This document shows, one piece after another, positions 10,856 through 49,736 of a DNA stretch of 58,975 nt. The translations under genes were made by a program, and so were the position numbers. The notes below the pieces were generated by a model. That model was given only the letters and a program-made list of their open reading frames with translations, had not been told where the DNA came from and did not search any database. Source of the stretch: an uncultured virus (IMG/VR IMGVR_UViG_3300010282_000326). Taxonomy: Duplodnaviria > Heunggongvirae > Uroviricota > Caudoviricetes. Location of the stretch: the IMG/VR virus record IMGVR_UViG_3300010282_000326; one strand, written 5' to 3'. Numbering within the stretch: the first letter of the stretch is position 1; every line of letters starts with the position of its first letter.

Positions 10856-10858
10856 ACT

Positions 10859-11242: not shown

Positions 11243-11470
11243 ATGTATATTGATAGTTTGGGAAATGCAAGAAATAATAAAGGTCAAATTATTTGTGCAA
11301 GATGCTATAAAGTTACAAATGTAACTACTATGTCTTGGTTTAATACACAAATGATTTGTTCTAATTGTAGAAAACAAGAGGAGAATGACCCTCGTATAAA
11401 ACAAGCTAAAAAAATGGAGCGTCAAGCTGTATTGCAAGGAAATATGAATTTTAAAGGAGTGGGATGGTAA
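11243..11470 (+). CDS. small zinc-binding phage-type protein
   Basis: CARC...MSWFNTQMICSNC...GNMNFKGVG. Confidence 0.7.
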   Translation: MYIDSLGNARNNKGQIICARCYKVTNVTTMSWFNTQMICSNCRKQEENDPRIKQAKKMERQAVLQGNMNFKGVGW

Positions 11471-12027
11471 TGCGAAAGAAAGTATTAACTTTAACTTTAG
11501 TTTTTGCAATGTTAGGTTTAACTGCTTGTTCTAGAGAAGATTTAGAAAAAGGTGTTGATGTGTCAGCTTATACTGATAAGTTACTTGATTCAGTAGATGT
11601 ACCTCAAACTGGTGGAGATGATAATCTTAAGGATTTTGTTTATGGTAATCTTAAAACAGTTGGTATAGATGTTCATCACTTAGGGGGTATTCCTCAAGGC
11701 ACCTATATTGGAGATTATATTAATGCATTGTTAGATGAGGTTGAGTTAAATACAACTACTAAAGAAGATGCTGAAGCTTATGTAAGAAAGAAGCTTGAAG
11801 AAATGGGTATTGACCAGACAGGCTTAGTTAATGATGAAGTTATTGATGTTATTGTAACTGCATTAAGAGAACAGAATATTGATGTCGATGATATAGTAAC
11901 GGATGGTGCAGTTTCTACTGAAACAGATGCAAGTACAGAAGCAGGTACATCTGAGACTACTGAAAGTACAGAAGCTGATACACCTGATACAGCAGGAAGT
12001 ACAGAAGCTACCTCGGAAGGAGAGTAA
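11470..12027 (+). CDS. putative lipoprotein with acidic Thr/Glu-rich tail
   Basis: Signal peptide with LTAC lipobox; STETDASTEAGTSETTESTE tail. Confidence 0.75.
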   Translation: MRKKVLTLTLVFAMLGLTACSREDLEKGVDVSAYTDKLLDSVDVPQTGGDDNLKDFVYGNLKTVGIDVHHLGGIPQGTYIGDYINALLDEVELNTTTKEDAEAYVRKKLEEMGIDQTGLVNDEVIDVIVTALREQNIDVDDIVTDGAVSTETDASTEAGTSETTESTEADTPDTAGSTEATSEGE

Positions 12028-12029
12028 TT

Positions 12030-13073: not shown

Positions 13074-13092
13074 TTAATATAGGAGGTTAGTT

Positions 13093-31483: not shown

Positions 31484-32068
31484 ATGAGAGTTTCAGACCT
31501 TAAGGAAATTTGGGGTATCCCTATAGTAAAGCTCAAGGAATATTGCAAGCGTTATAGATTTTATAATGTTTTATTGATAGTTGCAGATATTATTGCAGTT
31601 GCTGTTTTAACCTTTGTAATGTATAAGCAGAAAAATGATTTTGTAACTTATATATTAGTTATGCTTCTTTTTTGCTTATTGTTTAATTTTGTTTACAATA
31701 CAGTTCTTAACCCTCAAAAGTGGCAAGTTTATAAGTTTTTTATGAATAATAAGCATTGTAGGGTTGAGAAGAAAAAGTACAAAGTTAATGATAAGAATAT
31801 GTTTTCTATCATGTATTGCACTGGGTATAGACGAGTTGTCCCAAATAAAGAAATAGAAGATTATATGGAGTGGCTTGTAAGTGCTTGCAATGAAGATAAT
31901 TATTATGCTAAGAAGGTCATGAAGTACCTCAGTAAATATGAGGATGAGAGTGGTAATCTGATAGCATATATAATGATTAAAGGAAAAAAGCAATATTTCC
32001 TAAATTTTATTTCAGAAGGAGAAGAAAGCGATGGCGATAATAACACAGGAGCAGTTGAAAGCGATTAA
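31484..32068 (+). CDS. membrane protein
   Basis: Two TM helices; ATG at 31484 after GGAGG. Confidence 0.65.
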   Translation: MRVSDLKEIWGIPIVKLKEYCKRYRFYNVLLIVADIIAVAVLTFVMYKQKNDFVTYILVMLLFCLLFNFVYNTVLNPQKWQVYKFFMNNKHCRVEKKKYKVNDKNMFSIMYCTGYRRVVPNKEIEDYMEWLVSACNEDNYYAKKVMKYLSKYEDESGNLIAYIMIKGKKQYFLNFISEGEESDGDNNTGAVESD

Positions 32069-32987
32069 AGCAGGTGATGTAATTAACGGAGTGCTATTAG
32101 TTAAGTCTTATAGTGTTCAGTTAACAAAGAATGGAAAAGAGTATATCATAGGAAATTTGATGTCAGGGGTAGAAGTACCTTTTAAGGCTTGGGATAATTC
32201 TTCAGCATTTCCGAAGTTTAAGAACGAAGAGTATACTGGTGTTCCATCTCTTGTTCAGGGTGTAGTTGAGGCTTATAATGGTCAGCTTAGTATTATGGTT
32301 AATGATGTCAATGCTGTAGAAGGCTTTACACCAGACCAGTTTTTACCAATAAAGTATAATGCTAATGCTTATTGGGATGCACTTACAAAGTTGGTTAAGT
32401 CAAAAGTAAGTGATAAAGCTTACAATCTTCTTGATAAGATTTTCTTTTCTAAAGAGGATATCGTTGAGAGATTTAAGTATGAATTTGCAGCTCAGAGCCA
32501 CCATGATAATTGTAAGTCAGGTCTTTTAGCACATACATATAAGGTTGTTGGTGCTTTATCTTATGTTTTAAATACTTATCAGGGGCTTGTTATGAAGGAT
32601 TCTAAAACTCTTGACACAGACAAAGTTGACTTATTCTATGTTGGTGCTTTATTTCATGATATCGGTAAGATTGATGAGATGAAGTTCGGTATCTATCAGA
32701 GTAAGGCAAGAGTAACTCATAGATTCCTTGGTATCGAGTATTTCGCTGAGTATAAGAATGAGATTATCGAAAGTTATAATGAAGATTGGTATTATAATTT
32801 AGTTAGTATTATTCTACAGCATCATGGTGAGTATGAGGATAAGTGCAGAACAATTTATGCTCAGGTTATTCATTTGGTTGATGTTCTCGATTCAAGTATT
32901 ACAGATATGCTTCAGCTTATGGAAAGTCCACAGACTCAGGATGGGGTATCAAGAATTAAGCTGAATGGTAATTATTTGATGCTATAG
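32031..32987 (+). CDS. YhaM/Cbf1-like OB-fold + HD-domain 3'-5' exonuclease
   Basis: TKNGKEY OB fold, AAQSHHD, GLLAHT, LFHDIGK, ILQHHG, IHLVD. Confidence 0.88.
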   Translation: MAIITQEQLKAIKAGDVINGVLLVKSYSVQLTKNGKEYIIGNLMSGVEVPFKAWDNSSAFPKFKNEEYTGVPSLVQGVVEAYNGQLSIMVNDVNAVEGFTPDQFLPIKYNANAYWDALTKLVKSKVSDKAYNLLDKIFFSKEDIVERFKYEFAAQSHHDNCKSGLLAHTYKVVGALSYVLNTYQGLVMKDSKTLDTDKVDLFYVGALFHDIGKIDEMKFGIYQSKARVTHRFLGIEYFAEYKNEIIESYNEDWYYNLVSIILQHHGEYEDKCRTIYAQVIHLVDVLDSSITDMLQLMESPQTQDGVSRIKLNGNYLML

Positions 32988-32997: not shown

Positions 32998-33093
32998 ATG
33001 AAAGCATTAAAGATTATAGGAAGAATAGCTTTAGCTTTCTTAGGTGTTATGATTTTTAATTATTTGTTATGGGAGGCTGTATCGTATGAATAA
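32998..33093 (+). CDS. 31-aa hydrophobic peptide (absent from the ORF track)
   Basis: AGGAGG RBS; MKALKIIGRIALAFLGVMIFNYLLWEAVSYE; fills the gap between two genes. Confidence 0.55.
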   Translation: MKALKIIGRIALAFLGVMIFNYLLWEAVSYE

Positions 33094-33910
33094 GAAAGTA
33101 GTAATACCTATTGCTGTTGTAGTTAGCTTAATTGTTATTATGTTTATTATTCGAAGTATCAATATGAGTAAGAAGAAAGAACAAGCTGAGGTTGATACTT
33201 CAACTTCAACTACAGCAGTTGAAGCAAATACTGAAACTACTACAGAAAAAGCTTCCGAGACTACAACAGAGTATAAGCCAGGTATGGGGCTTGCTGGAGA
33301 TAAAAATAAGGATGATGGTAGAGTTGAAATTATAACTACAGAAGCTACTACAGAAGTTCAGCATTATGTGCAAGAGAATCCTACTTATCCAGTTTCAGTA
33401 CAGATATTTGACCACACAGGTGTACCAGAAAGAAATATGGATGGTTCTAGTTGTAAGAGTTATTTCAATGCAACTAAGTTATCAGATTATGGTACATATT
33501 GGGGAGGTGACTTAACAGATTCAGATTTCGTAGGTGGAAACAAGTATCTTGTTGGGGTAGACCAGAATAAAGATGATATTGAAATCGGTGATTTGCAATC
33601 AGTAGGTTGGTTGATTGATAATCTTCCTAAAATGAATGCAAATGATGCTATTAAGTTTACAAATCTTCATGTTATTGGAAGTTTAAGTGATAGTCATGTT
33701 GCTTTACTTTGTAGTTATGATTGGTATTCAGCTTTTGGTATGGATGATACATTAGTTATGTTTGAGGATATATCAGGTACATTAAAGACATCAAGTTTTA
33801 GTGATGGTGATATATTTTCAACAACTATCTATAAACATAATATCAAGGTTGTAGATAATGTGAATGGAAAGCGAGTTGTATGTGTTCAATATAATGTTTT
33901 TAACAGATAG
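33086..33910 (+). CDS. membrane-anchored exported protein with TTE-rich linker
   Basis: N-terminal TM helix, T/E-rich stalk, globular C-terminus. Confidence 0.75.
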   Translation: MNKKVVIPIAVVVSLIVIMFIIRSINMSKKKEQAEVDTSTSTTAVEANTETTTEKASETTTEYKPGMGLAGDKNKDDGRVEIITTEATTEVQHYVQENPTYPVSVQIFDHTGVPERNMDGSSCKSYFNATKLSDYGTYWGGDLTDSDFVGGNKYLVGVDQNKDDIEIGDLQSVGWLIDNLPKMNANDAIKFTNLHVIGSLSDSHVALLCSYDWYSAFGMDDTLVMFEDISGTLKTSSFSDGDIFSTTIYKHNIKVVDNVNGKRVVCVQYNVFNR

Positions 33911-33927: not shown

Positions 33928-33957
33928 AAAGGTGATGATTATTTCATCACCTTTTTT
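33928..33957 (+). terminator. intrinsic terminator
   Basis: AAAGGTGATGA/TCATCACCTTT stem followed by a T-run. Confidence 0.8.
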
Positions 33958-33977
33958 AATAGTGAGGAGGGTTTTTA

Positions 33978-35468
33978 TTGTCTAGACTAAAGAAACTTAC
34001 TTTAATTTTAGCATTATTTTTAATGTTATTACCAGCATTACCAGTTTATGCAGATAATACAGAGGGTACTACAGAGGCTACTACAGAAAATAGTATTGCA
34101 GCTCAAGAAAGAAAAAAGGGTGAGGAAGCAGCAGCAAAGCAGAGAAAAGGTAGTGACGGTAGTTGGTGTGGTATATATTGCACTCAGTCATCTATGGGAT
34201 ATGGAGGAGGTTGTACTGGTCTTTCTGTAACATTAATGTTACAGAATAGTGGTACTTTAAAGTCAGATATTCAATTAGCAGATGGCATCTATAAAGATAC
34301 TAGTGATAAAAAATGGCAGGCATATCATAAAGCAGTTACAAGTACTTATACATTATTCACTTCGGATGATTATTATTTAAGTGGTTATGCATCAGACTTA
34401 AGTGGTGGTTTTGATGATGAATTCTGTACTTCTTCTTGGAGCAATCCTAGTTCTGTTAAGTTTAAGGATGAATCGACTTTAGATGGTGATGTAATTTATA
34501 AAGTAAATGGAAAGTATATAGATGAGTTATCGGATACAGAACTAATTCAAGCATTACAGATGCTTTGGAACAATGATTATTATATAATATTAGGTGTAAG
34601 ATATGGAGAAAAGAAAGTACCAAATGCTGATGCAGGTGTAAGTGGTGATGGCTCTGATAATACAAACTCAAGACATTGGGTATTTTTATCTGGAGTTACT
34701 AATGATGATTTTTATATGAATGACCCAGCGTTAGGTCATAATTTGTCTTGGTCAGAAAGTAAACAGAAGCCACAGTCAAATACTAATGTTAAAGATTGGT
34801 CAGAATACCATAGACCTGTACATATAGTTATATGGAAAAATGAAAAGACAAGTGCAAGAAGTCGTTCAGGTAATTATGTTAATATTACAGATGCAGGCGA
34901 TGAAGGAAAAGCTTCTATGACAGAAGATGGAAGTAATGAATTGGGGTACTCTTCAGATGTATTTTTAGGGAATGGTTATTATTCTGAGGAACAGTTGTTT
35001 TCTAAGATGGAAGTTTCCGAAATGCAGATAGTAGATTTTGGAAATTTTGAAGATTTAGGTCAAGATGATAGAGATGCTCTTGACAACTGGAAGATGAATG
35101 TTGAAAAAGAGAAAGAAAAGAACTCGATTAATGCTTGGATTAGACGAATAGTTATGATATTTGGTATTTTAATAACTATTTGGAGTTTGTTGATTTATAT
35201 TGCTTATTGGTTTGATAGGCTAAATAATCTTATAGATTTCTCTTTACTTGAAATTTTAACATTTCAAAGATTATCTTTATCTGATACAGAAGAAACTTGT
35301 ACTTTCAGTTTAAGGCATTTAGGAGAAAAGAAGAGAACTGTAAATCATAGAGCAATAATATTGATTTCAGTTATTGGTATAACTTTTGGAGCATTGTTAA
35401 TAAGTGGGATACTATATAGAATTATATTTATTATTGTACAAAAGGTATTAAATTTGCTATATGGATAA
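33978..35468 (+). CDS. exported paralog 1: C39-like cysteine peptidase domain + conserved C-terminal membrane anchor
   Basis: Signal peptide (VYA-D), Q..GGGC...ML, RHWVFL, YMNDP (Cys-His-Asp); shared two-TM C-terminus. Confidence 0.75.
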   Translation: MSRLKKLTLILALFLMLLPALPVYADNTEGTTEATTENSIAAQERKKGEEAAAKQRKGSDGSWCGIYCTQSSMGYGGGCTGLSVTLMLQNSGTLKSDIQLADGIYKDTSDKKWQAYHKAVTSTYTLFTSDDYYLSGYASDLSGGFDDEFCTSSWSNPSSVKFKDESTLDGDVIYKVNGKYIDELSDTELIQALQMLWNNDYYIILGVRYGEKKVPNADAGVSGDGSDNTNSRHWVFLSGVTNDDFYMNDPALGHNLSWSESKQKPQSNTNVKDWSEYHRPVHIVIWKNEKTSARSRSGNYVNITDAGDEGKASMTEDGSNELGYSSDVFLGNGYYSEEQLFSKMEVSEMQIVDFGNFEDLGQDDRDALDNWKMNVEKEKEKNSINAWIRRIVMIFGILITIWSLLIYIAYWFDRLNNLIDFSLLEILTFQRLSLSDTEETCTFSLRHLGEKKRTVNHRAIILISVIGITFGALLISGILYRIIFIIVQKVLNLLYG

Positions 35469-37017
35469 TAAGATTAAAAAGGGTTTAGTATATTTATTGT
35501 TGTTATTTAGTTTTACTTGTGCTTTTAGTACTTGTAAACTTGTTTATGCTGATAATAAAAAGACTACTGAGTCTAGTGGAAATAAAACTGCAGATGAAGA
35601 AAAGAAAAAAGGTGAATCAAAGTTAACTGGTTGTACTGGTTCTTGGTGCAAGATTGGTTGTAATCAAAAGCCATTACAAACAGCTCTTAATGGAGATGGT
35701 TGGTGTGTTTATACAAGTTTCTTTACTATGTTAGAGAATTCAGGTACTTTAAAAGATGCATATCAACAAAGTGCACCTTTTTACTGTGGATATTCTGATT
35801 CTATTGATACAAGTTGTAAGTATTTTAAAGGTTTTGATGCATTTCATGCACCTATGGCAGGAAGTTGGAGTTTAACAAATGGAGTAACTAACGCAAATAA
35901 TGTGTGTGATAAGGGTACTTGGTCATTAGTTTCAAGTACAACAATGGGAGATTATAAAACAGGAGCAGGTAGTGCAGGAGAATATTTAGTTGAGATAAAC
36001 GGTACTTCTTTAGGTAAGTGTAAAGTAAATACAACAATAAAAGATTTAGTTGCATATTTATACAATAATGGATATTGGGTAATTATAGGTGTAAATAACC
36101 CTAATAATTGGGGAGATTATAACGGACCATCTGGACATACAGCTCGTCATCAGATGTGGGTATGTGGTGTAGATGATAAAGAGATATATGTAAATGATAG
36201 TGGTAATACAAGTGATAATAATGATGGTATTTTTACTTTAGCCGATTATTATAGTGCTGGAACAGTTGTATGTTGGCTTTGTCCAATTAAATGTGATAAA
36301 GTTACTTGGAAGTCTGCTTCTCATGGAGGTGCTGTTTTACCATCAGGTGCTGATAGTAATTCAAGTACAGTTAAAGATGGCGAACATACATATACTAAAG
36401 GTGAAGATGGTAAATGGTATGATGAGAATGGTAATGAAGTAGATGAGTCTACAGTTAATGCAGCAAAAGCAAATGATAACTCATTAGGGGTATCAGGTGC
36501 ACAGTTTATGGGTGAGGGTTATTATTCCGAACAGCAGTTGTTTAGTGGTATGACTCTTATGGAGGCTGATATCTCTGAAATGTTAGATGTAAGTATAGAG
36601 GATTTTGGTCAAGATAACAGAGAAGCACTCGATGATTGGAAAATGAATGTAGAGAAGGAAAGAGAAAAGAACTCAGCTAACGCTTGGGTAAGAAGAATCG
36701 TAATGATTTTTGGAATAATCTTGACTATTTGGATGTTGCTTATCTATATTGCATATTGGTTTGATAGATTAAATAATTTATTAGATTTCTCATTATTAGA
36801 GATTCTTACTTTTCAGAGGTTGTCATTGTCTGATACCGAGGAGACTTGTACCTTTAGCTTAAGAAGTTTAGGTCAAAAGAAGAGAACAGTTAATCATAGG
36901 GCGATATTGCTTATATGTGTAATAGGTTTGGTATTTGGTGCTTTACTTATAAGTGGCACATTATATAAAATAATATTTGTGATAGTGCGTAAAGTATTGA
37001 ATATACTTTATGGATAA
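35461..37017 (+). CDS. exported paralog 2: C39-like cysteine peptidase domain + conserved C-terminal membrane anchor
   Basis: Signal peptide, GWCVYTS..ML, RHQMWV, YVNDSG; shared C-terminus. Confidence 0.72.
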   Translation: MDNKIKKGLVYLLLLFSFTCAFSTCKLVYADNKKTTESSGNKTADEEKKKGESKLTGCTGSWCKIGCNQKPLQTALNGDGWCVYTSFFTMLENSGTLKDAYQQSAPFYCGYSDSIDTSCKYFKGFDAFHAPMAGSWSLTNGVTNANNVCDKGTWSLVSSTTMGDYKTGAGSAGEYLVEINGTSLGKCKVNTTIKDLVAYLYNNGYWVIIGVNNPNNWGDYNGPSGHTARHQMWVCGVDDKEIYVNDSGNTSDNNDGIFTLADYYSAGTVVCWLCPIKCDKVTWKSASHGGAVLPSGADSNSSTVKDGEHTYTKGEDGKWYDENGNEVDESTVNAAKANDNSLGVSGAQFMGEGYYSEQQLFSGMTLMEADISEMLDVSIEDFGQDNREALDDWKMNVEKEREKNSANAWVRRIVMIFGIILTIWMLLIYIAYWFDRLNNLLDFSLLEILTFQRLSLSDTEETCTFSLRSLGQKKRTVNHRAILLICVIGLVFGALLISGTLYKIIFVIVRKVLNILYG

Positions 37018-37036
37018 ATAAAGATTAAAAAGGAGA

Positions 37037-37702
37037 ATGTTAGTTATGAGTCAAAAATTTAAGTTAGTTGTTGTTCTACTTAGTCTTGTAGTGTTTTTAT
37101 CAAAGGGTATGACTATTCATGCTGAAGAATCTCAGAAGTATTTGTTTATTGGAGATTCAAGATTTGTAGGAATGCAGGATTCTTGTCAAAACAAAGAGGG
37201 GTATTCTGATATTACTTGGTTATGTAAAGTAGGTATGGATAGCTCTGGGGTAGATGAAAATTGGGCTACTATTGAGTCAACTCCAAAAGATACGATAATT
37301 ATATATGAAATGGGTATAAATGGTATGGCATTTCAGAATAACCTTGACCAAGTTCAGAGAATAAAGGATTTAGGTTTTAAAGTTTATTATGTAGAAATTG
37401 CACCAGTAGATGAAAGTAAACCAAGTGCATCTAGAACAAGTAAAGATGTAGAGGATTTTAATAGTAAATTAAATTCTTTTGCTAAGGAGATTTATACAGT
37501 AATTCCTTGTTATGATATTCTAAGTGGTAAATTAACTACTTCAGATTATGATGAAATGGGTATTCATTATAATTCTAATGCTTACAGACTTTGGTATGAT
37601 ATTATCTTTGAAGGGTTGAAAGAAAAAGAGCCAGAATGTAAAGGGGTAGTTAATAGTAAACGGCTTAAAGCAATAAATAAACTATTAGGAGTTGATTTTT
37701 AG
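37037..37702 (+). CDS. exported SGNH/GDSL-family esterase
   Basis: Signal peptide; FIGDS (block I), GING (block III), DEMGIHY (block V). Confidence 0.8.
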   Translation: MLVMSQKFKLVVVLLSLVVFLSKGMTIHAEESQKYLFIGDSRFVGMQDSCQNKEGYSDITWLCKVGMDSSGVDENWATIESTPKDTIIIYEMGINGMAFQNNLDQVQRIKDLGFKVYYVEIAPVDESKPSASRTSKDVEDFNSKLNSFAKEIYTVIPCYDILSGKLTTSDYDEMGIHYNSNAYRLWYDIIFEGLKEKEPECKGVVNSKRLKAINKLLGVDF

Positions 37703-39195
37703 TGAAAAAGAGGTTTTTAGCAGGATGTTTGGTTGGTTTGGTGGTTTTAACCTCATTTAGTTCTTTATCAGTTTATGCTGATAAAAAGAAAACTACTGAA
37801 AAAACTACTGAGACTTCAACAGAAGTAACTACAGAAGGTAGTACAGAAGCAACAACAGAAAAAAGTAGTAAATCACAGGTATCAGAGGGGGATAAGAAGA
37901 AAGCAGAGGATACTTTTAAGAGTTCTTTAGGCTTATCAGATGAGCAATTATCGGTTGCAAAAGCCATGTGTGCAGTTTTACTTGCTGATGGCTTTACAGC
38001 AGAAGCTACCTCAGGAATAGTTGGAAATTGTTATGGTGAGTGTAGCTTTAATTCTAAAGCTTATGCTTATGATAATAGTGATAAACCAAATGATGTTAAT
38101 GGTGGTTTATTTGGTTTTACACCCATTAAAGATATGGTAGATAGTGATGGTTGTTGGGATGGTATTAAATGTAACCATGAGAAGTTTTTATATGGTGATA
38201 CTAAAGGTAGTCATAAGCAACAGAAAGCTTGTCCAGATGGTGGCTGTCAAGTTGCCTATATGTTAAAAGGGGTAGACACTAAGTTTGGGTGGTCAGGTTT
38301 TTATAATAAAGCTTGGAATAATTATATAGATGATTGTAAAAGTAAGATGACAGATGCAGATTTTTTTACTAAAAAGTTACCAGAAAACCCGACTTTAGCT
38401 CAATTAAAAGCAATGACTGAGTGGGATTCTGCAACTGTTGAATTTAATATTTGTTATGAAATCAGTTATGGAAATAATATTTTAATTAAGAAGAATAAAG
38501 CTTATCATGATACAACCTCATCAAGTGCAGCTTGTCATAAGTATTCTAGTAATAAGTTAAAGGGAGCAAAGGCTTGTTATGATTATTTAAAGGCAGTAGG
38601 TACTGTAACAGCAGATGGAAGTACAGCTAGTTCTAATATTTTATCTACTGACTCAGATAAGCAAGAAGCTGAGAATATGGCTTATGCATTAGCTACAAAT
38701 GGCTATTGGTCAGAGTCACAATTAGGTGAGTTTAATCGGTTATATGAAACTCAAGTTACTATATCAGGTAATCGAAGTAATTTTACATCTAAGGAGTTAA
38801 GTAGTCTTTCAGATTGGGAGCAAAATGTTCAAAAAATGAACGAGAAGGGTACACCTTTATACATAGTTAGAATTATAACTATGATAGTTGGAATCATCTT
38901 TACTATATGGATGATTTTAATTTATATAGCTTATTGGGTAGATAGATTAAATAATTTAATAGACATGGAATTATTAGGTCTGTTAACATTTAATAAGCTT
39001 AGATTATCAGATACTGAAGAGACTTGTGATTTTAGGTTATCAGGCTTAGGAAAAGGTGAGGCAAGGACTGTAAATCATAGGGCAATACTTGAAATATGTA
39101 TATTAGGTATTGCATTTGGAGCATTGATTATAAGTGGGTATCTCTATTTAGTAATATTGACTTTAGTACAAAAGGTTATAGAATTTTTACATTGA
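37702..39195 (+). CDS. exported paralog 3: phage-tail-lysozyme-like domain + conserved C-terminal membrane anchor
   Basis: GFTAEATSGIVGNCYGECSFN...GGLFGFT...ATVEFNICYE resembles Phage_lysozyme2; shared C-terminus. Confidence 0.7.
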   Translation: MKKRFLAGCLVGLVVLTSFSSLSVYADKKKTTEKTTETSTEVTTEGSTEATTEKSSKSQVSEGDKKKAEDTFKSSLGLSDEQLSVAKAMCAVLLADGFTAEATSGIVGNCYGECSFNSKAYAYDNSDKPNDVNGGLFGFTPIKDMVDSDGCWDGIKCNHEKFLYGDTKGSHKQQKACPDGGCQVAYMLKGVDTKFGWSGFYNKAWNNYIDDCKSKMTDADFFTKKLPENPTLAQLKAMTEWDSATVEFNICYEISYGNNILIKKNKAYHDTTSSSAACHKYSSNKLKGAKACYDYLKAVGTVTADGSTASSNILSTDSDKQEAENMAYALATNGYWSESQLGEFNRLYETQVTISGNRSNFTSKELSSLSDWEQNVQKMNEKGTPLYIVRIITMIVGIIFTIWMILIYIAYWVDRLNNLIDMELLGLLTFNKLRLSDTEETCDFRLSGLGKGEARTVNHRAILEICILGIAFGALIISGYLYLVILTLVQKVIEFLH

Positions 39196-39204
39196 GGTGA
39201 GTAA

Positions 39205-40758
39205 ATGAAAAAGTATTTAGTTTTAATATTATTAGCAACGACATTATTATGGGGTAGTGTTGATGTGTATGCTGATGATAAAAATAAAACTACTGAAGCA
39301 ACAACAGAGGATTCAAGTAGTGATACAAGTAGTGATACAAAGAAATCTTCTTCAGGTAATAATGGTAGTCCAAAAGATAATCCTTTTTGTAATTCAGGTG
39401 CACCAGTAGCATATAAGGAATTTAAATATTATGATTTTGCAGTTCCTTATAAGAAGACAATAAAGGAAATAGGTGGTTATGCTACAAGTGCAGAAACAAC
39501 AGGGTTGTACAGTTTTCATGGCTCTGATAACGATTGGGGTAATACTCAGCATGGTCTTTTGAATATCTTTAATACCACTACAGGTGACTTAAGTTCAAAT
39601 GTTTTTGATAGTAGTGGTTATGATGATAATTTAGGTGGTTTAATGTATGTAGAAAAGGATGGAGTTAGGTTTTATTGTGGTGCATTAGGACAAGGTTTAT
39701 ATGCAAATTCAGCTTTAGGTTGGTCTTTAAGTAATACAGGTTTGAGTTATGGTGGAGATTATGATAAATTAATGGGCAGTTATTATCCTTGTCAGGCAGG
39801 TCTATTATTCGATGTTATACTTAAAGATGGTACTCAATATCATTTTTGTGAGCAGTCAGCTATGGGTATTGGTCATTCCATAGGTGGAGAAAATGCTGGT
39901 CAGGATGGTATAAATTATAATAAGGCTAAATTAAATTATCAACAATATAAATGTTGTTGGCATACAGATAATCCTTGGCAATTAGTTGAGGTATCTGCTA
40001 AATCAGGCTCATCAACAGCAGGAATAGCTAAAGCAATGGGTATATCAGATGAAAATCCAGTTATGTATATAAGAGTTTGGGTTGCGAGTTTATATATGAT
40101 AGGTAATAGTGGAAAAAAGGCTTCAACATTTGCAAGCGATAAAGATGGTGTGTCTAAAGGTACAGAATTGTCAGAGGGTAGTCCAGATGATTCTTCTTCA
40201 GACCCAGTTGATGGAGCAGCTGAGGGTACTACTAGTGCACAATATTTAGCAAATGGTTATTGGAGTGAGGAACAACTTGCTGTAGTTACTAAGATAAATG
40301 AAGATTTTATAAATTTAACTGCATCAAGAAATGATTTTACAAGTAAGGAACTTGGAGCATTATCTGATTGGGAACAGAATGTTCACAAGATGAATGAAAA
40401 AGATTCAATATTCTATTATGTCAGAATTATAACAATGATTATAGGTATTATATTTACTGTTTGGATGTTGCTAATTTATATAGCATACTGGTTTGATAGG
40501 CTTAATAATATAATTGATATAGATTTACTTCCAATATTAACATTTCATAGATTGCGTTTAAGTGATACAGAAGAGACTTGTACTTTCCGAGCTTCAGACT
40601 TGGCTAAGACTGATACTCGTACTGTCAATCATAGAGCGATATTAGGTATATGTATTGTTGGTGTTGCTTTTGGAGCATTAGTAATTAGTGGCACATTATA
40701 TGTAGCAATTATGACATTAGTTCAAAAAGTATTCAATTTACTTGGAATAGGTGGTTAA
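39205..40758 (+). CDS. exported paralog 4: unassigned central domain + conserved C-terminal membrane anchor
   Basis: Signal peptide; DGVRFYCGALG...GLLFDVILKDGT segment (possibly a 3D/double-psi-barrel-like wall enzyme); shared C-terminus. Confidence 0.65.
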   Translation: MKKYLVLILLATTLLWGSVDVYADDKNKTTEATTEDSSSDTSSDTKKSSSGNNGSPKDNPFCNSGAPVAYKEFKYYDFAVPYKKTIKEIGGYATSAETTGLYSFHGSDNDWGNTQHGLLNIFNTTTGDLSSNVFDSSGYDDNLGGLMYVEKDGVRFYCGALGQGLYANSALGWSLSNTGLSYGGDYDKLMGSYYPCQAGLLFDVILKDGTQYHFCEQSAMGIGHSIGGENAGQDGINYNKAKLNYQQYKCCWHTDNPWQLVEVSAKSGSSTAGIAKAMGISDENPVMYIRVWVASLYMIGNSGKKASTFASDKDGVSKGTELSEGSPDDSSSDPVDGAAEGTTSAQYLANGYWSEEQLAVVTKINEDFINLTASRNDFTSKELGALSDWEQNVHKMNEKDSIFYYVRIITMIIGIIFTVWMLLIYIAYWFDRLNNIIDIDLLPILTFHRLRLSDTEETCTFRASDLAKTDTRTVNHRAILGICIVGVAFGALVISGTLYVAIMTLVQKVFNLLGIGG

Positions 40759-43700
40759 GATGAATTATATTAATTTAGTAGCATTATTAAAAGCTATGCA
40801 TCAAATAAAAAATGTTGAAGTCTATGGTAGAATTATTAGCAGGTTAAAAAGACCTGCTAATATTATGGAAAGTGTCCAAGTAGATGAAACAAAGGGTATG
40901 TTTGTTAAAGTTGATGTATTTGCAGTTAGATTATCAGGCATACAAAAATATCTGAAGGATTGTGGCTATTACGCAAAGAATGATATTTATATGGTTAATG
41001 GTCAACTTATCACATATATAGAAGCAAATAAGTATGTTTTACCTGATTGGTACTATATGAGGGGTACTTTAGCTTCTTCTCAGGTGCAACCAGACTATAT
41101 TTCTTTGTTCAAATGGGGTAAGACTGGGGCTGGTTGGAGCATCAGTTTTACAGAACTTGGTGATTTCGTATTTCAAGAGTTTGAGCATGATAATGATATG
41201 AATTCATATATTCATAAGTCATTTCAGGAGAATATTGTTGTAAGACCAGATTATGTTAATAATCTTCAGAAGTTCTATGCAGTAGACCCACGCACATTAA
41301 ACAATCAACCAGTTGTAGAAAATAAGTCTTTAAATGCTCAAATTCAGCAAAGTTTAAATAATGTTCAAATAACTACAACTGTATCGAATTCGAGTTTTGT
41401 GCAGGAAAGTAGACAAGATATAAAAGATTATTCAACATTGGCAACAAAACTTAAAGATGACCTTAAAAAGGCTAAGTCCTCTAGAACTTCATTCATTCAA
41501 AATCTTATTTCAAAGTATGAAATTGAAGATGAAATTACTGACTATATAATGTACACCATTGATGGTGTAAGGTCATTTTTGAAATCAAAGCCAGTTAAAG
41601 ATGCATCAACAGGACGAATGCTTCTAAAGGGGTACTTAAATAATTTTGGTAAAGATATGGATGCTGAGTATTTAGGTACAACAGTTAAATCGTTCTTAAT
41701 TGATGATTTTGATGAAGTTGCTGATTTTATGGTATCGGGAGATAGGGTTAATTGTCATAAAGAAGCTTGGGCTATGTGTAAGAAAGCTTTTGGTAATCCA
41801 GAGTTGTTTTATGCAGGTATTTTAGGTCAAGTAGTTGGTGTTAGTTTTGATAAACTTGAACCAGTAGTTAATTTATGTAGTGATTATGAATTATCTTTCA
41901 GTAAGATTGTAAATGAAAATCCTTATTTACTTCAAGTGTTAAGTACTTTAGATTATTCAGCTATAGAACATATTGCTTTGTGTGTAGGTAAGGCAAATGA
42001 CCGTAGTATAGATAAGGAAAGAAATATAGCTGTTTTACATTCTTATATTTTAAATACAAGGGGTAATACGGTATTTAAGATTTCAGATTTATATAAAAAG
42101 CCTATAGGTGTTGCATTAAGTAAGGCTAAATATGAGTCTTGTAGAGATAGGGGTACTTATTTATCGAACAATACTTTGGCTAATTTGAAATATTTTATTC
42201 GAGAAGACGAATCTGAAGTCGGATATAATTTATCTGGTGGTTGGCAGTACTTTAATTATCAGTATTGCTTGCGATTAACTCCAAGAGAGTTAAATGATGC
42301 TATTAAAGATTATACAAATTCAGGTATAGGTGTGACATTTGATAATTATATAACTTCTTCCAGCTACTTAGATAAAGAATTATATGTTTATGAACATCTT
42401 TACGAGATGGGAAATGTTAAAATAGATTATGATGTAAATGAAATAGAAAGGTATATTGCTGAGTATGAAGCACAAGTAGGCTTTAAGTTGGAGGAAAATC
42501 AGCGTAAAGCTGTACATCTCTGTACAAGGGGTAGTGCTATTATAGCAGGTAGTGCAGGAAGTGGTAAAACTACTGTTTCAAATTGTATAGTTTATGTATT
42601 AGATAAGTTAGAGAGAGGACATGCAACTTTTAAGTTTGCGACTCCAACTGGTAAGGCAGCTAAGAGATTACAAGAAGTTGTTAAAAAACCAGTTAAGACT
42701 ATGAATAGCTTATTCAAAATATTTGGTACTGAATCAAGTATTCTTGATGAGGATAAAGGTGATGCTTCTGATGAAGGTATATTTTATTTCTTTGATGAAG
42801 GGGCTATGGTAACAATAGACTTATTATACTCGGTATTAAAGAGAATAAGTACAAATAACAGAATATTTTTCTTTGGTGACTTTCATCAATTACCACCTAT
42901 AGGTAAGGGTTTGCCTTTTAGAAATCTTTTAAGGTTTATGCCTTGTGTTTTCTTAACAGTATCTAAAAGGGCTGAGGAAGGTTCAAATATTACAAGAAAT
43001 TCTAATTATATCAATGAGAATAGTGATATGAATTGGAAGAATCTTGTGAGTGAAGGAGATTTTATTCTTTGTCCTTGTAGTGATGATATGGTAAAAGATA
43101 TAACTGTAGGTCTATGTAAGCATTATCTTGGTCAGAATACTATAAATGAAGACCAAAACTTAATGAAATTGATGAATGTTACTTCTTTACCAGATATACC
43201 TAATTTAAAGCCGAGTGATATTCAAGTAGTTAGTCCATTAGCAAAAGCATCTTATGATTGGGGTACTATAAGATTAAACACACTATTACAGCCTATATTT
43301 AATAGTAATCGAGGTGTAAAGAACACATTTTTCTATCAGCCAAGTAAAGATTCATATATAAAATTTTTAATTGGAGATAGAGTAATACATTCTGAGTCTA
43401 ATATGTATAGTATGCAATGGTATGAATCTTATACTGGAGGTCAATTTGTAAAGACTTTTGGTTTTGGTATTTGTAATGGAGATGTTGGAAAATTGGTTGC
43501 AGTTTATCCATCAAGTCAGTGTATTTTTATGGAAGAACAGACATTACCACCAGCAGATTTTGAATATCCTCAGACTATGCGTGATGATTCAACATATTCA
43601 GGTGAAAATCTATATTTTCTTGTTGTTGAATATTTTGATTATATCACGAATAAGAATTATTATATACTATATAGATGTAGGCTTTCTGATTATAGTAATG

Positions 43701-43996
43701 ATTATGGATTAGCTTTAACTGGTGAGGATTTCTCTAAATTAAACTTATTCTATGCAGGTACAACTCATAAACTTCAAGGTAGTCAAGCAAAGCTGATAAT
43801 TTCTGTTTTAAAGAAAGTTAACTATCAACATTTTATAACACGAAATATGATGTACACTGTTTTTACTAGGGCAGAAAAGCAAGTATTTGCTATAGGTTCT
43901 GTTTCTAATGATAGAAACTCTATGTTATCTATCGCAAGAAGAGATGTAGCTGAGGAAGATGTGCTTACAATAGGAGAATTATTATATAAAGTGTAA
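40751..43996 (+). CDS. RecD2-like superfamily 1B DNA helicase with long N-terminal region
   Basis: GSAGSGKTT, TPTGKAAKRL, DEGAMV, GDFHQLPPIG, NGDVG, TTHKLQGSQ, YTVFTRA; ENPY motif. Confidence 0.92.
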   Translation: MVKMNYINLVALLKAMHQIKNVEVYGRIISRLKRPANIMESVQVDETKGMFVKVDVFAVRLSGIQKYLKDCGYYAKNDIYMVNGQLITYIEANKYVLPDWYYMRGTLASSQVQPDYISLFKWGKTGAGWSISFTELGDFVFQEFEHDNDMNSYIHKSFQENIVVRPDYVNNLQKFYAVDPRTLNNQPVVENKSLNAQIQQSLNNVQITTTVSNSSFVQESRQDIKDYSTLATKLKDDLKKAKSSRTSFIQNLISKYEIEDEITDYIMYTIDGVRSFLKSKPVKDASTGRMLLKGYLNNFGKDMDAEYLGTTVKSFLIDDFDEVADFMVSGDRVNCHKEAWAMCKKAFGNPELFYAGILGQVVGVSFDKLEPVVNLCSDYELSFSKIVNENPYLLQVLSTLDYSAIEHIALCVGKANDRSIDKERNIAVLHSYILNTRGNTVFKISDLYKKPIGVALSKAKYESCRDRGTYLSNNTLANLKYFIREDESEVGYNLSGGWQYFNYQYCLRLTPRELNDAIKDYTNSGIGVTFDNYITSSSYLDKELYVYEHLYEMGNVKIDYDVNEIERYIAEYEAQVGFKLEENQRKAVHLCTRGSAIIAGSAGSGKTTVSNCIVYVLDKLERGHATFKFATPTGKAAKRLQEVVKKPVKTMNSLFKIFGTESSILDEDKGDASDEGIFYFFDEGAMVTIDLLYSVLKRISTNNRIFFFGDFHQLPPIGKGLPFRNLLRFMPCVFLTVSKRAEEGSNITRNSNYINENSDMNWKNLVSEGDFILCPCSDDMVKDITVGLCKHYLGQNTINEDQNLMKLMNVTSLPDIPNLKPSDIQVVSPLAKASYDWGTIRLNTLLQPIFNSNRGVKNTFFYQPSKDSYIKFLIGDRVIHSESNMYSMQWYESYTGGQFVKTFGFGICNGDVGKLVAVYPSSQCIFMEEQTLPPADFEYPQTMRDDSTYSGENLYFLVVEYFDYITNKNYYILYRCRLSDYSNDYGLALTGEDFSKLNLFYAGTTHKLQGSQAKLIISVLKKVNYQHFITRNMMYTVFTRAEKQVFAIGSVSNDRNSMLSIARRDVAEEDVLTIGELLYKV

Positions 43997-48821: not shown

Positions 48822-49736
48822 ATGAATAAGTTTATCAAACGATTTGTTGTTGGTAATGTTATACTTTGTTTTATAGTATTATGGAATTTAGCTATATATA
48901 AGCATTCAGTAGATAAGTTTGAGAAAAATTTAGATGAAACTAAAACAGCTTTTGAGGATGTCACAGCAACTACTACTGAACAAGCAACATTACCAGAAAT
49001 TCAGACTGAAAGTACAACAGAAGAGCTTGAACCTTTAGGTAAAGTGAGAGAAGCTCACGCAGTTGTGAATAAGGAAGTTTTAACTGAAGCAACTACTGAG
49101 CAAGTAGAAACAACAGAAGTTTCTACTGAGGAGAAAAGAGTTACAAATTGTTTTCCAAGAGTAGATACAAATAATGATGATACATTTTCGTATACAGAAG
49201 ATGGAGAAAATATTATAGCAACAATAAATGGGGTAGACTATACTTTTTATAAAGCTATCTTATATAATAATATTAATTTTCCATCGATAGGTTCTCAGTT
49301 TGCAAAAATAACTATACCGAGTATAGGAATATATAGTACGGATATTATAGTTGGTGCTACTCAAGATTTAGTTGATACTTTTGATATTTGTATGAGTACA
49401 AGAGATAGTTATTTTGGAGATAAAAGACCTGCTTTACTTTGTGGACATAATAATCGAAGTTTTGAGAAATTATTTAATCTTAAACTTGGCTCTTATATTT
49501 TCATTGAAACTGATTATGGTGGTTTTGTTTATAAAGTAACAAATATTGAGTATGGTACTATAAATGATGAATACACTGAAATTTATGATAAAAATGGAAA
49601 AAGTCTTTTAGTTGAAAATACAGAGTATGATAATCAGATACTTCAGATGTACACTTGCTATGGAGAAACTAATGGTACAAAGGAAAGATTAGTAGTTACA
49701 GCAGAGCAAGTAGTGGGTACGGAGGTATATAAATGA
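48822..49736 (+). CDS. sortase (class D-like)
   Basis: N-terminal TM, TTE stalk, ITIPSIGI, LCGHN, YKVT, MYTCY, RLVV (His-Cys-Arg triad). Confidence 0.85.
   Translation: MNKFIKRFVVGNVILCFIVLWNLAIYKHSVDKFEKNLDETKTAFEDVTATTTEQATLPEIQTESTTEELEPLGKVREAHAVVNKEVLTEATTEQVETTEVSTEEKRVTNCFPRVDTNNDDTFSYTEDGENIIATINGVDYTFYKAILYNNINFPSIGSQFAKITIPSIGIYSTDIIVGATQDLVDTFDICMSTRDSYFGDKRPALLCGHNNRSFEKLFNLKLGSYIFIETDYGGFVYKVTNIEYGTINDEYTEIYDKNGKSLLVENTEYDNQILQMYTCYGETNGTKERLVVTAEQVVGTEVYK

What the first reader, a model, noticed from the sequence alone, without database searches (positions are those of the whole stretch)
33978..40758. Cassette of four paralogous membrane-anchored exoenzymes with swappable catalytic domains and one conserved anchor, plus an SGNH esterase
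Seen: ORFs 33978, 35461, 37702 and 39205 share one architecture: signal peptide ending VYA-D, a TTE/Ser linker, a variable Cys-rich ~280-aa domain, and a highly conserved ~165-aa C-terminus (GY[YW]SExQL...L.[DN]W..NV...RI..I.GI..T[IV]W..LIYIAYW.DRLNN..D..LL..LTF..L.LSDTEETC.F...RTVNHRAI...FGAL.ISG.LY) with two TM helices. The central domains differ: two C39/papain-like Cys-His-Asp peptidases, one phage-tail-lysozyme-like domain and one unassigned domain. Anchors 1/2 and 3/4 are pairwise closest, implying successive duplications with domain exchange. An exported SGNH esterase sits in the middle. Known: these catalytic folds include peptidoglycan hydrolases, O-acetylation blocks lysozymes, and some SGNH enzymes (Ape1) remove it. 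Inference: an apparently undescribed modular wall-breaching or remodelling complex in which a common anchor docks different hydrolases onto one membrane machine, for DNA transfer/entry across diverse walls, release, or contact-dependent attack.
Basis: partly seen in the sequence, partly recalled or inferred. Interest (0 to 1): 0.85.

Follow-up and report, generated by a model that had tools for sequence, protein, structure and literature searches.

The report
Membrane-tethered wall hydrolases sharing one anchor
A giant plasmid-like element from gut bacteria carries four exported cell-wall-cutting enzymes that differ in their cutting heads but share one undescribed membrane anchor, and that anchor turns out to define a large, unnamed protein family also present on the conjugative Bacillus plasmid pXO16.

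Summary
Four ORFs share a VYA|D signal peptide, a Thr/Glu linker, a variable head and a ~165-aa C-terminal two-helix membrane anchor (73% mean column identity).

Heads:
- One is a phi29-gp13-type lysozyme (PF18013; PDB profile E 5e-16).
- Two are C39_2-like Cys-His-Asp domains, on weak evidence.
- One is a new beta-rich domain with faint double-psi-barrel resemblance.
- A secreted SGNH-like protein sits in the middle and is fused to lysozyme+anchor in a relative.

The anchor matches no Pfam, NCBIfam or PDB entry. It nevertheless defines a family of 715 50%-identity clusters and is C-terminal in all 150 listed. About two thirds carry lysozyme heads.

Anchors follow the element lineage, not the head class, so heads are swapped or anchors are homogenised.

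The window is collinear with the 350-kb conjugative plasmid pXO16 (PolA 38.7% identity), which has two anchor-bearing genes. Related elements carry 1, 2 or 3 such genes at the same site.

Best reading (0.5): tethered wall-opening enzymes of a pXO16-like megaplasmid, probably serving transfer or mating. Docking of the anchor to a machine is untested. I rate it a new variant of a known kind, with moderate interest.

The parts
33086..33910 (+). 274-aa protein with an N-terminal membrane helix, a Thr/Glu-rich linker and a ~170-aa outer domain of unknown family. It is the conserved upstream neighbour of the anchored hydrolases.
   Evidence: ORF; single N-terminal hydrophobic segment, residues 1-29. 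Homologues lie directly upstream of the anchored hydrolases in L001 (40% identity), L002 and L013. No Pfam or NCBIfam family above threshold.
33931..33957 (+). Terminator-like hairpin (8-bp stem, 5-nt loop, T-run) between the upstream gene and ORF1. It is followed by the RBS GAGGAGG (33964-33970) and the TTG start at 33978.
   Evidence: Read directly from the sequence printed. The consensus scan did not list it and found no more sites than in shuffles, so its function is inferred only.
33978..35468 (+). ORF1, 496 aa: signal peptide (..VYA|D), linker, C39_2-like Cys-His-Asp head (about residues 60-300), and anchor (residues 333-496, nt 34974-35465).
   Evidence: invariant Q70, C79, H233, D249. 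Pfam DUF3335 only E 0.085. Atlas features 0.95 to Peptidase_C39_2 clusters.
35461..37017 (+). ORF2, 518 aa: the same architecture as ORF1 (C39_2-like head plus anchor). Its ATG overlaps the ORF1 stop (ATGGATAA).
   Evidence: Anchor 79% identical to that of ORF1.
37037..37702 (+). 221-aa secreted SGNH-like protein (signal peptide, GDS block, GIHYN block) with no anchor.
   Evidence: Pfam Lipase_GDSL_2 E 0.007, below cut-off; phrog_14008 E 6e-8. 28% identity, E 4e-19, to the N-terminal domain of P0002, where that domain is fused to lysozyme2+anchor.
37702..39195 (+). ORF3, 497 aa: signal peptide, long TTE linker, phi29-gp13-type lysozyme head, and anchor. Its GTG start overlaps the SGNH stop (TAGTG).
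   Evidence: PF18013 E 2.2e-9. Profile A9 hits phi29 gp13 (3csr) at E 5.3e-16, with invariant N109/E113 aligned to GNMQSES. Junction read.
39205..40758 (+). ORF4, 517 aa: signal peptide, Ser/Thr linker, new beta-rich head (about residues 55-320), and anchor (residues 350-513).
   Evidence: No Pfam, PHROG or NCBIfam hit. The AF2 model has pLDDT ~90 in the head. Only weak double-psi-barrel matches: GH45 Z 3.5, kiwellin Z 3.2, expansins Z ~3. 27 of 138 family representatives share this head.
40751..43996 (+). RecD2-like SF1B helicase, 1081 aa. Its start overlaps or abuts the ORF4 stop. It is a neighbour in the same tight gene string, not a hydrolase.
   Evidence: Pfam AAA_19/AAA_30; TIGR01448 RecD2 E 4e-67. 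Junction. Same position in L001 and L013.
32031..32987 (+). YhaM-like HD nuclease, 318 aa, the conserved upstream flank of the module.
   Evidence: Pfam HD E 6e-9. NF010007 YhaM E 5e-11 over its full length. Homologues in L001, L002, L013 and pXO16.

Best explanation
The window is part of a ~272-kb, low-GC, single-orientation extrachromosomal element of a gut Bacillota host. The element is related to the conjugative Bacillus thuringiensis megaplasmid pXO16.

The region encodes a tightly packed string of Sec-exported peptidoglycan-cutting enzymes. Each is held at the outer face of the cytoplasmic membrane by the same C-terminal module. That module consists of two juxtamembrane helices, a first transmembrane helix, a ~45-residue loop that the topology places in the cytoplasm (conserved YWFDRLNN...ECTF...RTVNHR), and a second transmembrane helix.

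The heads supply complementary activities: a gp13-type muramidase-like lysozyme, two C39_2-like cysteine peptidases, and a new barrel-like domain. A soluble SGNH-like esterase probably removes O-acetyl groups that block the glycosidase.

Shown:
- the architecture;
- the paralogy;
- the size of the family;
- exchange of heads relative to anchors;
- the pXO16 kinship;
- the conserved position of the module.

Inferred: the tethered enzymes open the wall only next to the membrane, for an envelope-spanning apparatus of the element. Conjugative transfer or the mating junction is the most likely candidate. The conserved cytoplasmic loop would be the site that places or controls the enzymes. Co-resident anchors resemble each other because they must fit the same element-specific partner.
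For: Architecture and paralogy. The models show the helical hairpin.

Heads:
- PF18013 in ORF3, and a gp13 profile match at E 5.3e-16 with the GN..E motif invariant.
- Invariant Q/C/H/D in 8 of 8 class-A heads, with Atlas hits to Peptidase_C39_2.
- Relatives carry NlpC/P60 (P0123), Glucosaminidase (pXO16 RS28810) and an adjacent SH3+NlpC/P60+3D protein (L001).

Family:
- 715 representatives at E<=1e-3, 199 at <=1e-30; the anchor is at the C-terminus in all 150 listed.
- 64 of 99 scanned have PF18013, 2 of them with an N-terminal GDSL domain.

Fusion: the SGNH-like ORF is homologous to the N-terminal domain of P0002.

Anchors track the element:
- 44 head-class changes on the tree against 53.6 +/- 2.2 in 200 shuffles (minimum 45).
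- The L001 lysozyme and class-D anchors are 79% identical; the L002 pair is 85%.

Element:
- PolA is 38.7% identical over 96% of its length to the 350-kb B. thuringiensis plasmids. In 50,697 phage records the listed hits reach <=27% identity over <=60%, and no record covers >=80% of the query.
- 12 non-cassette ORFs are collinear with pXO16, and there are 2 anchor hits there at E 1e-20 and 4e-13.
- pXO16 is conjugative and needs a wall hydrolase for efficient transfer (review PMC9673590).

Position: the order HD nuclease - N-anchored protein - anchored hydrolase(s) is conserved in the window (4 copies), L001 (3), L002 (2) and L013 (1). The RecD helicase follows in all but L002, whose contig ends first.
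Against: - No T4SS, coupling-protein or relaxase gene is in the 59-kb window. The rest of the contig could not be read.
- In pXO16 the two anchor-bearing genes (127.9-131.7 kb) lie ~75 kb from the FtsK-like gene and the weak NlpC/P60 protein that probably mark the tip locus. The characterised hydrolase TipB may therefore be a different protein.
- The cassette sits in a replication-type gene string (PolA, HD nuclease, RecD2, primase), not a transfer locus.
- The HD protein looks like YhaM, not a MOB_H relaxase.
- The C39_2, SGNH and double-psi-barrel assignments are weak.
- Topology, activity and any partner are unmeasured.
Confidence: 0.5

Rival explanations
1. Wall remodelling for the element's own surface structures or for host growth. 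The tethered hydrolases would make room in the wall for sortase-anchored giant adhesins or pili (aggregation), or act as accessory autolysins, with no direct part in DNA passage.
For: A sortase gene (48822-49736) and a T2SSE-type ATPase (13093-14160) lie in the window. pXO16 carries sortase, giant surface proteins and C39 peptidases in its aggregation region. Surface modules are a conserved theme of gut megaplasmids (Hodor preprint, section 6) and of Inocles (passages).
Against: The cassette is not next to the sortase or to surface-protein genes in the window. It lies ~8 kb upstream of the sortase, with the helicase and primase between them. The conserved neighbours are DNA enzymes. Nothing links the anchor to sortase substrates.
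Confidence: 0.2
2. Lysis enzymes of a phage-like life cycle. These would be membrane-tethered endolysins kept inactive until the membrane is depolarised, with the two-helix tail acting as a holin-like or release domain.
For: The lysozyme head is homologous to a phage tail lysin. Atlas clusters of relatives are labelled Uroviricota. The single gene orientation, tRNA genes and PolA give a phage-like look, which reviewers also noted for pXO16 (PMC6199540).
Against: - No structural, portal or terminase PHROG among 45 window ORFs at E<=1e-5.
- No relative in IMG/VR by the anchor pattern scan, and none in 50,697 phage records at E<=1e-3 by tblastn with the 517-aa ORF4 protein.
- PolA is far closer to pXO16 than to any phage record.
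- No plaques are known for pXO16.
- The signal peptides look cleavable and the anchor helices are strongly hydrophobic (peak 2.3-2.75), unlike SAR domains.
- The genes sit in a string with replication genes.
- Only 59 of 272 kb were seen.
Confidence: 0.12
3. Contact-dependent attack on neighbouring cells or recipients. The tethered hydrolases would damage the wall of a cell pressed against the carrier.
For: Variable heads on a constant module recall polymorphic toxin logic. The heads diversify faster than the anchors.
Against: A protein tethered by a C-terminal hairpin beneath the producer's own thick wall cannot easily reach another cell. No immunity-like small genes pair with each head; the ORFs are contiguous or overlapping. 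There is no secretion-system marker.
Confidence: 0.05

Closest known systems
pXO16 (pBTHD789-1, NC_018516.1) genes BTF1_RS28810 (WP_003255494.1, 'glucosaminidase domain-containing protein') and BTF1_RS28790 (WP_000795854.1, hypothetical)
   Same: Both have the same C-terminal anchor (profile E 4e-13 and 1e-20; alignment A8), and N-terminal hydrophobic leaders read from the translations. They form a small cassette, three short genes apart, on a collinear, single-orientation megaplasmid.
   Different: The heads are a Glucosaminidase domain (PF01832) and an unassigned domain. The RTVNHR motif has diverged. They lie elsewhere relative to PolA. Neither gene is described in the texts I could read.
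Peptidoglycan hydrolases of Gram-positive conjugation systems (CwlT, PrgK, TraG of pIP501, TcpG, TipB of pXO16). The first four names are recalled; TipB comes from the reference list of PMC9673590.
   Same: Encoded by a mobile element, held at the membrane, and combining glycosidase and peptidase activities to open the wall locally.
   Different: Those enzymes, as recalled, carry both activities on one polypeptide with an N-terminal anchor and lie inside the transfer locus. Here each activity is a separate protein with a cleavable signal peptide and a shared C-terminal two-helix anchor, and no transfer gene is nearby.
Phage phi29 gp13 (PDB 3csr/3csq) and Pfam PF18013 Phage_lysozyme2
   Same: The lysozyme head of ORF3, and of about two thirds of the family, shares the fold family and the GN..E motif.
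   Different: gp13 is deposited as phi29 'Morphogenesis protein 1'. Its virion-tail role and its second, metallopeptidase domain are recalled from the literature. It has no anchor-like C-terminal part: the deposited chain is 334 aa and no PDB chain matched the anchor profile.
Signal-peptide and SAR endolysins (recalled)
   Same: Exported lysins that stay at the membrane.
   Different: Those use an N-terminal tether next to holin genes. Here the tether is a C-terminal hairpin with a conserved loop, in several paralogues, beside replication genes.
Gut and oral megaplasmids: 'Hodors' (bioRxiv 10.64898/2026.02.21.707213) and 'Inocles' (PMC12340149)
   Same: Elements of hundreds of kb in human-associated Bacillota, with sortase and surface genes and a RecD-like helicase. 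Hodors 'frequently' carry Phage_lysozyme2 domains.
   Different: Hodors have 44-47% GC, Rep_3 and VirB4/VirD4, whereas the window has ~31% GC and a family-A polymerase. Neither paper mentions pXO16 or an anchored hydrolase cassette in the parts I read. Kinship to Inocles was not tested.

Membership tests
Phage_lysozyme2 (PF18013) / phi29 gp13 N-terminal lysozyme (head of ORF3) | Match to the family model above its curated cut-off | tested here: met
   38.1 bits against a cut-off of 28.2, E 2.2e-9. Profile of 22 heads against PDB: gp13 at E 5.3e-16.
Phage_lysozyme2 (PF18013) / phi29 gp13 N-terminal lysozyme (head of ORF3) | Conserved Glu in the GN...E[S/C] motif (its catalytic role is recalled) | tested here: met
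   N109 and E113 are invariant in 22 of 22 sequences and align to GNMQSES of gp13.
Peptidase_C39_2 / C39-like cysteine peptidases (heads of ORF1, ORF2) | Significant match to a family model | tested here: not met
   Best Pfam hit is DUF3335 (C39-like) at 12.8 bits against 25, E 0.085. PDB profile: 3erv at E 0.17. hhalign against the pXO16 C39 peptidase: probability 4%.
Peptidase_C39_2 / C39-like cysteine peptidases (heads of ORF1, ORF2) | Gln/Cys ... His ... Asp in papain order, conserved | tested here: met
   Q70, C79, H233 and D249 are invariant in 8 of 8.
Peptidase_C39_2 / C39-like cysteine peptidases (heads of ORF1, ORF2) | Papain-like fold | tested here: inconclusive
   Atlas: feature score 0.95, ten of ten best family hits in the C39 clan, structure TM ~0.5 to C39_2 clusters. 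The Atlas's own model has low confidence and I made no model of my own.
SGNH/GDSL hydrolases (ORF 37037-37702) | Match to a family model above cut-off | tested here: not met
   Lipase_GDSL_2 at 17.3 bits against 32.9. No NCBIfam or PDB hit.
SGNH/GDSL hydrolases (ORF 37037-37702) | Block I GDS and block V His | tested here: inconclusive
   FIGDSRF and GIHYN are present, but the Asp three residues before the His is Met (sequence). In P0002 the same block reads DGIH.
Conjugative (VirB1-type) wall hydrolases of Gram-positive T4SS | Gene lies in a transfer locus with VirB4/VirD4/FtsK-type ATPases | tested here: not met
   None among 51 window ORFs scanned. In pXO16 the homologues are ~75 kb from the FtsK-like gene. 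The rest of the 272-kb contig was not readable.
Conjugative (VirB1-type) wall hydrolases of Gram-positive T4SS | Membrane-tethered extracellular glycosidase plus peptidase | tested here: met
   Signal peptide plus C-terminal helices in all four. Lysozyme and Cys-peptidase-like heads. The tether is C-terminal, unlike the recalled examples.
Conjugative (VirB1-type) wall hydrolases of Gram-positive T4SS | Required for efficient transfer | not testable with these tools
   Needs deletion and mating assays.
Phage endolysin/holin lysis cassette | Adjacent holin or spanin genes and a late structural context | tested here: not met
   The neighbours are PolA, an HD nuclease, a RecD2 helicase and a primase. 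No structural PHROG in 45 ORFs.
pXO16-like megaplasmids (the element) | Collinear shared genes and single gene orientation | tested here: met
   12 non-cassette ORFs of 64 hit pXO16 in strictly descending order. 54 of 56 ORFs >=100 aa are on the + strand, and the two minus-strand ORFs lie inside + ORFs.
Double-psi beta-barrel wall enzymes (MltA/RlpA/3D, expansin, GH45) for the ORF4 head | Fold match | tested here: inconclusive
   Foldseek best E 0.8. VIA Z 3.5 (GH45, 130 residues aligned, rmsd 4.8), 3.2 (kiwellin) and ~3 (expansins) on a 517-residue model. The head was not folded alone.
MOB_H-type HD relaxase + helicase module (as proposed for Hodors) for the flanking genes | HD protein matches TIGR03760 | tested here: inconclusive
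   TIGR03760 is not among the hits at E<=1. The best hit is YhaM, NF010007, E 5e-11. The preprint relied on HHsearch and structure comparison, which I did not run.

The most novel reading that the evidence does not exclude
The anchor is a docking and gating module of a so far unrecognised envelope-crossing apparatus of pXO16-like giant elements. Its conserved cytoplasmic loop would couple wall opening to the DNA-processing proteins encoded around it (YhaM-like HD nuclease, RecD2 helicase). A set of interchangeable hydrolase heads would then be recruited to one portal, letting the element cross walls of different chemistry. That would help explain how pXO16 transfers without a recognisable relaxase.
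Probability: 0.15. Interest if true: 0.85.

Novelty: new variant of a known kind. Interest (0 to 1): 0.55.

Why it matters
Gram-positive conjugation needs a local breach of a thick wall. The enzymes known to do this are few, and as recalled they are single, N-terminally anchored proteins.

This finding adds four things:
- A large unnamed domain family (715 clusters at 50% identity) that tethers exchangeable wall-cutting heads by their C-terminus.
- A new head domain found in 27 of 138 representatives.
- A link between uncultured ~270-kb gut elements and pXO16, the one experimentally tractable conjugative plasmid whose transfer genetics are still largely unknown.
- Two concrete, undescribed pXO16 genes to knock out.

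If the anchor proves to be a docking module, it would also be a handle for finding the rest of the machine.

Tried and rejected
- **tblastn of ORF4 against plasmids and phages at E<=1e-3:** no match. For plasmids this was a sensitivity limit. On pXO16 alone the anchors do hit, at E 1e-7 to 6e-6.
- **Anchor in IMG/VR:** 90 pattern matches, 0 confirmed.
- **Anchor in 185,579 species genomes:** 92 pattern matches, 0 confirmed.
- **Own genome and L001 record:** not held.
- **Earlier findings of this scan:** nothing.
- **Anchor against PDB by sequence:** only chance-level rows, best E 0.015, dynein.
- **Anchor fold searches:** only generic helical hairpins, Z<=6.6.
- **Anchor homodimer prediction:** no verdict.
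- **Class-D profile against PDB:** nothing.
- **ORF3 and the SGNH ORF as single sequences against PDB:** nothing useful.
- **SGNH ORF against P0118:** not significant, E 0.068.
- **Class A against the pXO16 C39 peptidase:** probability 4%.
- **Upstream 274-aa protein against the pXO16 gene at the same position:** no alignment.
- **Promoter and terminator consensus scan:** no more sites than in shuffles.
- **RNA evidence:** no RNA holder listed; read laying was not used.
- **MOB_H idea for the HD protein:** no TIGR03760 hit.
- **Hodor membership:** rejected on GC (31% against 44-47%) and replication genes.
- **'TipB' in PMC8432619:** an unrelated immunity protein.
- **Makart 2018:** not held. 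The TipB paper (Hinnekens 2021) was not looked up by id; only its reference-list entry was seen. Whether TipB is one of the two anchor-bearing pXO16 genes therefore stays open.

Full report
**1. Observation**

A 221-aa ORF lies between the second and third, at 37037-37702.

The four-way alignment shows invariant V-Y-A-D at the end of an N-terminal hydrophobic leader. A Thr/Glu- or Ser-rich linker follows, then unrelated middles. More than 80 columns are invariant, concentrated in the last ~165 residues.

- The anchors alone have 73% mean column identity.
- Pairwise anchor identity is ORF1-ORF2 79% and ORF3-ORF4 65%.
- A hydropathy scan gives one N-terminal and two C-terminal hydrophobic segments in each protein, and only the N-terminal one in the 221-aa ORF.
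- The genes are packed. The ORF2 ATG overlaps the ORF1 stop. The ORF3 GTG overlaps the stop of the 221-aa ORF. The helicase start overlaps or abuts the ORF4 stop.
- A hairpin with a T-run (33931-33957) and a GAGGAGG site precede ORF1.
- The consensus promoter/terminator scan found no more sites than in shuffles.

**2. The heads**

*ORF3 (lysozyme head).* It matches Pfam Phage_lysozyme2 above its cut-off, at 38.1 bits against 28.2. A profile of 22 such heads matches the N-terminal lysozyme domain of phage phi29 gp13 (PDB 3csr) at E 5.3e-16. N109 and E113 are invariant and align to the GNMQSES motif.

*ORF1 and ORF2 (class A heads).* They share a head with invariant Gln70, Cys79, His233 and Asp249 in 8 of 8 sequences. 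Sequence matches to C39-like families are below threshold:
- DUF3335, E 0.085;
- 3erv, E 0.17;
- hhalign to a pXO16 C39 peptidase, probability 4%.

The ESM Atlas places the head next to Peptidase_C39_2 clusters. The feature score is 0.95 and structure TM is ~0.5. Some of those clusters are fused to SLT, LysM, GH19 or SpoIID domains. This is a lead, not proof.

*ORF4 (class D head).* It has no family in Pfam, PHROGs or NCBIfam. An AlphaFold model built on 31 sequences is confident in the head, with pLDDT about 85-95 over residues 50-320. Fold matches are only weak, but they recur in double-psi beta-barrel proteins:
- GH45, Z 3.5, 130 residues aligned, rmsd 4.8;
- kiwellin, Z 3.2;
- expansins, Z ~3;
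- Foldseek best E 0.8.

The best viral match is an uncharacterised gut phage protein at E 9.7e-4.

*The 221-aa ORF (SGNH-like).* It has a leader, a GDS block and a GIHYN block, but its GDSL match is below cut-off. It is 28% identical (E 4e-19) to the N-terminal domain of P0002. In P0002 that domain is fused to a lysozyme head and the anchor. Two further family members carry a clear GDSL domain in front of the lysozyme head (P0118 and P0125). P0118 itself does not align significantly with the window's ORF.

**3. The anchor**

It has no Pfam, NCBIfam or PDB sequence match. Fold searches return only generic helical hairpins, Z<=6.6.

The models show two helices, a long transmembrane helix, a loop with a small hairpin, and a second long helix. 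pLDDT is ~60 on 10 sequences and 80-94 in the 31-sequence model. With a cleaved signal peptide the head is outside, so the first helix runs inward. The loop between the helices is then cytoplasmic. This is inference; topology was not measured.

The word-index search found only 26 relatives. The exhaustive profile search found 715 representatives at E<=1e-3, 356 at <=1e-10 and 199 at <=1e-30. The anchor is at the C-terminus in all 150 listed.

Across 164 members the best conserved positions are a Glu and a Trp before the membrane, an Arg and Gly-Ile at the start of helix 1, Y..W.D..N at its end, and the His of TVNH before helix 2.

**4. Which heads go with the anchor**

Of 99 representatives scanned:
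- 64 have Phage_lysozyme2 at E<=1e-4, 2 of them also with GDSL;
- 1 has NlpC/P60;
- 34 have no Pfam family.

With my own head profiles, 17 of 138 representatives have the class-A head and 27 have the class-D head. P0123 combines NlpC/P60 with a class-A head.

Over 198 proteins, including cluster members and therefore redundant, the counts are lysozyme 128, class D 36, class A 23 and unassigned 11.

On a FastTree tree of the 198 anchors, the head class needs 44 changes. Two hundred label shuffles give 53.6 +/- 2.2, with a minimum of 45. The tree is short and weakly resolved, so that count is rough. The direct identities say the same thing:
- within L001, the lysozyme and class-D anchors are 79% identical;
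- within L002 they are 85% identical;
- ORF4's anchor is as close to a lysozyme protein (P0002, 78%) as to its own class (P0003, 78%).

Anchors therefore follow the element, not the head. This could arise by head replacement or by homogenisation of co-resident anchors.

**5. The element**

The contig is 272,762 bases. The window has ~31% GC and positive GC skew throughout. Of 56 ORFs >=100 aa, 54 are on the + strand. There are four tRNA genes.

Its genes include a family-A polymerase, a YhaM-like HD nuclease, a RecD2 helicase, a primase, FtsH, FloA, a T2SSE-type ATPase, a sortase and a metallophosphoesterase. No phage structural family is hit among 45 ORFs.

The polymerase is 38.7% identical over 96% of its length to that of the ~350-kb B. 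thuringiensis plasmids (10 records). In 50,697 phage records the listed hits reach at most 27% identity over 60%, and no record covers 80% of the query.

Those plasmids are pXO16, according to the FEMS review passages. Against the full pXO16 record, 12 non-cassette window ORFs of 64 hit in strictly collinear order. The anchor profile finds exactly two genes:
- RS28810, Glucosaminidase plus anchor, E 4e-13;
- RS28790, unassigned head plus anchor, E 1e-20.

They are three short genes apart.

**6. Conserved position**

In L001 (a 268.7-kb contig) three anchored proteins follow the HD nuclease and a homologue of the 274-aa N-anchored protein. After them come an SH3+NlpC/P60+3D protein, then the helicase and primase. 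L002 has two anchored proteins in the same place.

L013 lies on a 95-kb contig of a MAG labelled uncultured Lachnospiraceae, with PolA 65% identical. It has one anchored protein, a lysozyme head plus anchor.

The window's four-plus-esterase set is thus an expansion of a module that can be a single lysozyme-anchor gene. The 274-aa upstream protein is present in 4 of 4 of these contexts. It is absent beside the L003 gene.

**7. What is known**

- Review PMC9673590 (passages and section 16) states that pXO16 has 434 CDSs with few homologues. [quoted passage not shown] No relaxase has been identified.
- Review PMC6199540 (passages) notes the common orientation of all CDSs, many paralogues, a suspected phage-like nature without plaques, and ssDNA transfer distantly like pCW3.
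- Makart 2018 is not held. For the TipB paper (Hinnekens 2021) I saw only the reference-list entry and did not look it up by id. From annotation and Pfam, an FtsK-like gene (204-206 kb), a 1833-aa protein, a 709-aa protein with a weak NlpC/P60 hit and an AAA ATPase (228-229 kb) probably mark the tip region. That region lies ~75 kb from the anchor-bearing genes. This placement is my inference.
- The Inocle paper (PMC12340149; passages) and the Hodor preprint (outline; sections 6, 7 and 28; passages; supplements not seen) describe human-associated megaplasmids. Neither mentions pXO16 or this cassette in what I read.
- Hodors differ from the window in GC and in replication genes.
- None turned up the anchor, which has no name to search for. 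Its absence from print is therefore not proven.

**8. Reading**

The most likely explanation is a set of membrane-tethered wall hydrolases of a pXO16-like megaplasmid that open the wall locally for the element's envelope-spanning functions. Transfer is the leading candidate. The conserved loop would be a placing or control site.

The main weaknesses are these:
- no transfer genes are nearby, and only 59 of 272 kb were seen;
- the pXO16 homologues are far from the presumed tip locus;
- two head assignments are weak;
- there is no evidence of any partner.

The rivals, given with odds above, are wall remodelling for surface structures, phage-like lysis, and contact-dependent attack.

Noticed in passing
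window 17890-58975, against NC_018516.1 34-125 kb: Twelve non-cassette ORFs are collinear with the conjugative B. thuringiensis plasmid pXO16. They include the ligase-like 17890, 20134, 22061, PolA, the HD nuclease, the primase, 47481, 52465, the metallophosphoesterase and 57761. The window is a distant gut relative of that 'terra incognita' plasmid.
   Followed up: yes
window 40751-43996: The RecD2-like helicase has no tblastn hit in pXO16 at E<=1e-4. At the matching place (40.1-44.5 kb) the pXO16 gene table lists no CDS. That table omits pseudogenes, so this may be a gap in annotation.
   Followed up: no
window 4891-6341: Four tRNA genes (Met, Leu-taa, Gln, Pro) are clustered on the element.
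   Followed up: no
window 8049-14160: The element encodes an FtsH protease, a FloA flotillin (E 5e-134) and a T2SSE/VirB11-type secretion ATPase close together. That is unusual cargo for a plasmid or phage.
   Followed up: no
window 15791-16963: A second HD protein has weak matches to dGTP triphosphohydrolases, including the anti-phage dGTPase models.
   Followed up: no
window 33086-33910; L001 6734-7594; L002 2364-3251; L013 16979-17890: A ~280-aa N-terminally anchored, exported protein of unknown family always sits directly upstream of the anchored hydrolases. It could be a partner, scaffold or inhibitor.
   Followed up: partly
L001 12121-14619: In the related 268.7-kb element an 832-aa SH3 + NlpC/P60 + 3D-domain protein, without the anchor, follows the three anchored proteins. 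It takes the place of the window's extra heads.
   Followed up: partly
L013 10001-14455: The PolA homologue in the Lachnospiraceae MAG is 1485 aa against 1137 aa in the window. BLAST aligned 780 residues at 65% identity, so it may carry an insertion such as an intein.
   Followed up: no
whole window: Size class, ~31% GC, tRNAs, RecD-like helicase and sortase resemble the oral 'Inocle' elements (PMC12340149). Kinship was not tested, because no Inocle sequence was at hand.
   Followed up: no
NC_018516.1 249-252 kb and 283-285 kb: pXO16 carries two annotated C39 family peptidases. One is next to a class A sortase and giant surface proteins. This hints that C39-type domains are a recurring part of the wall and surface toolkit of these elements.
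   Followed up: partly
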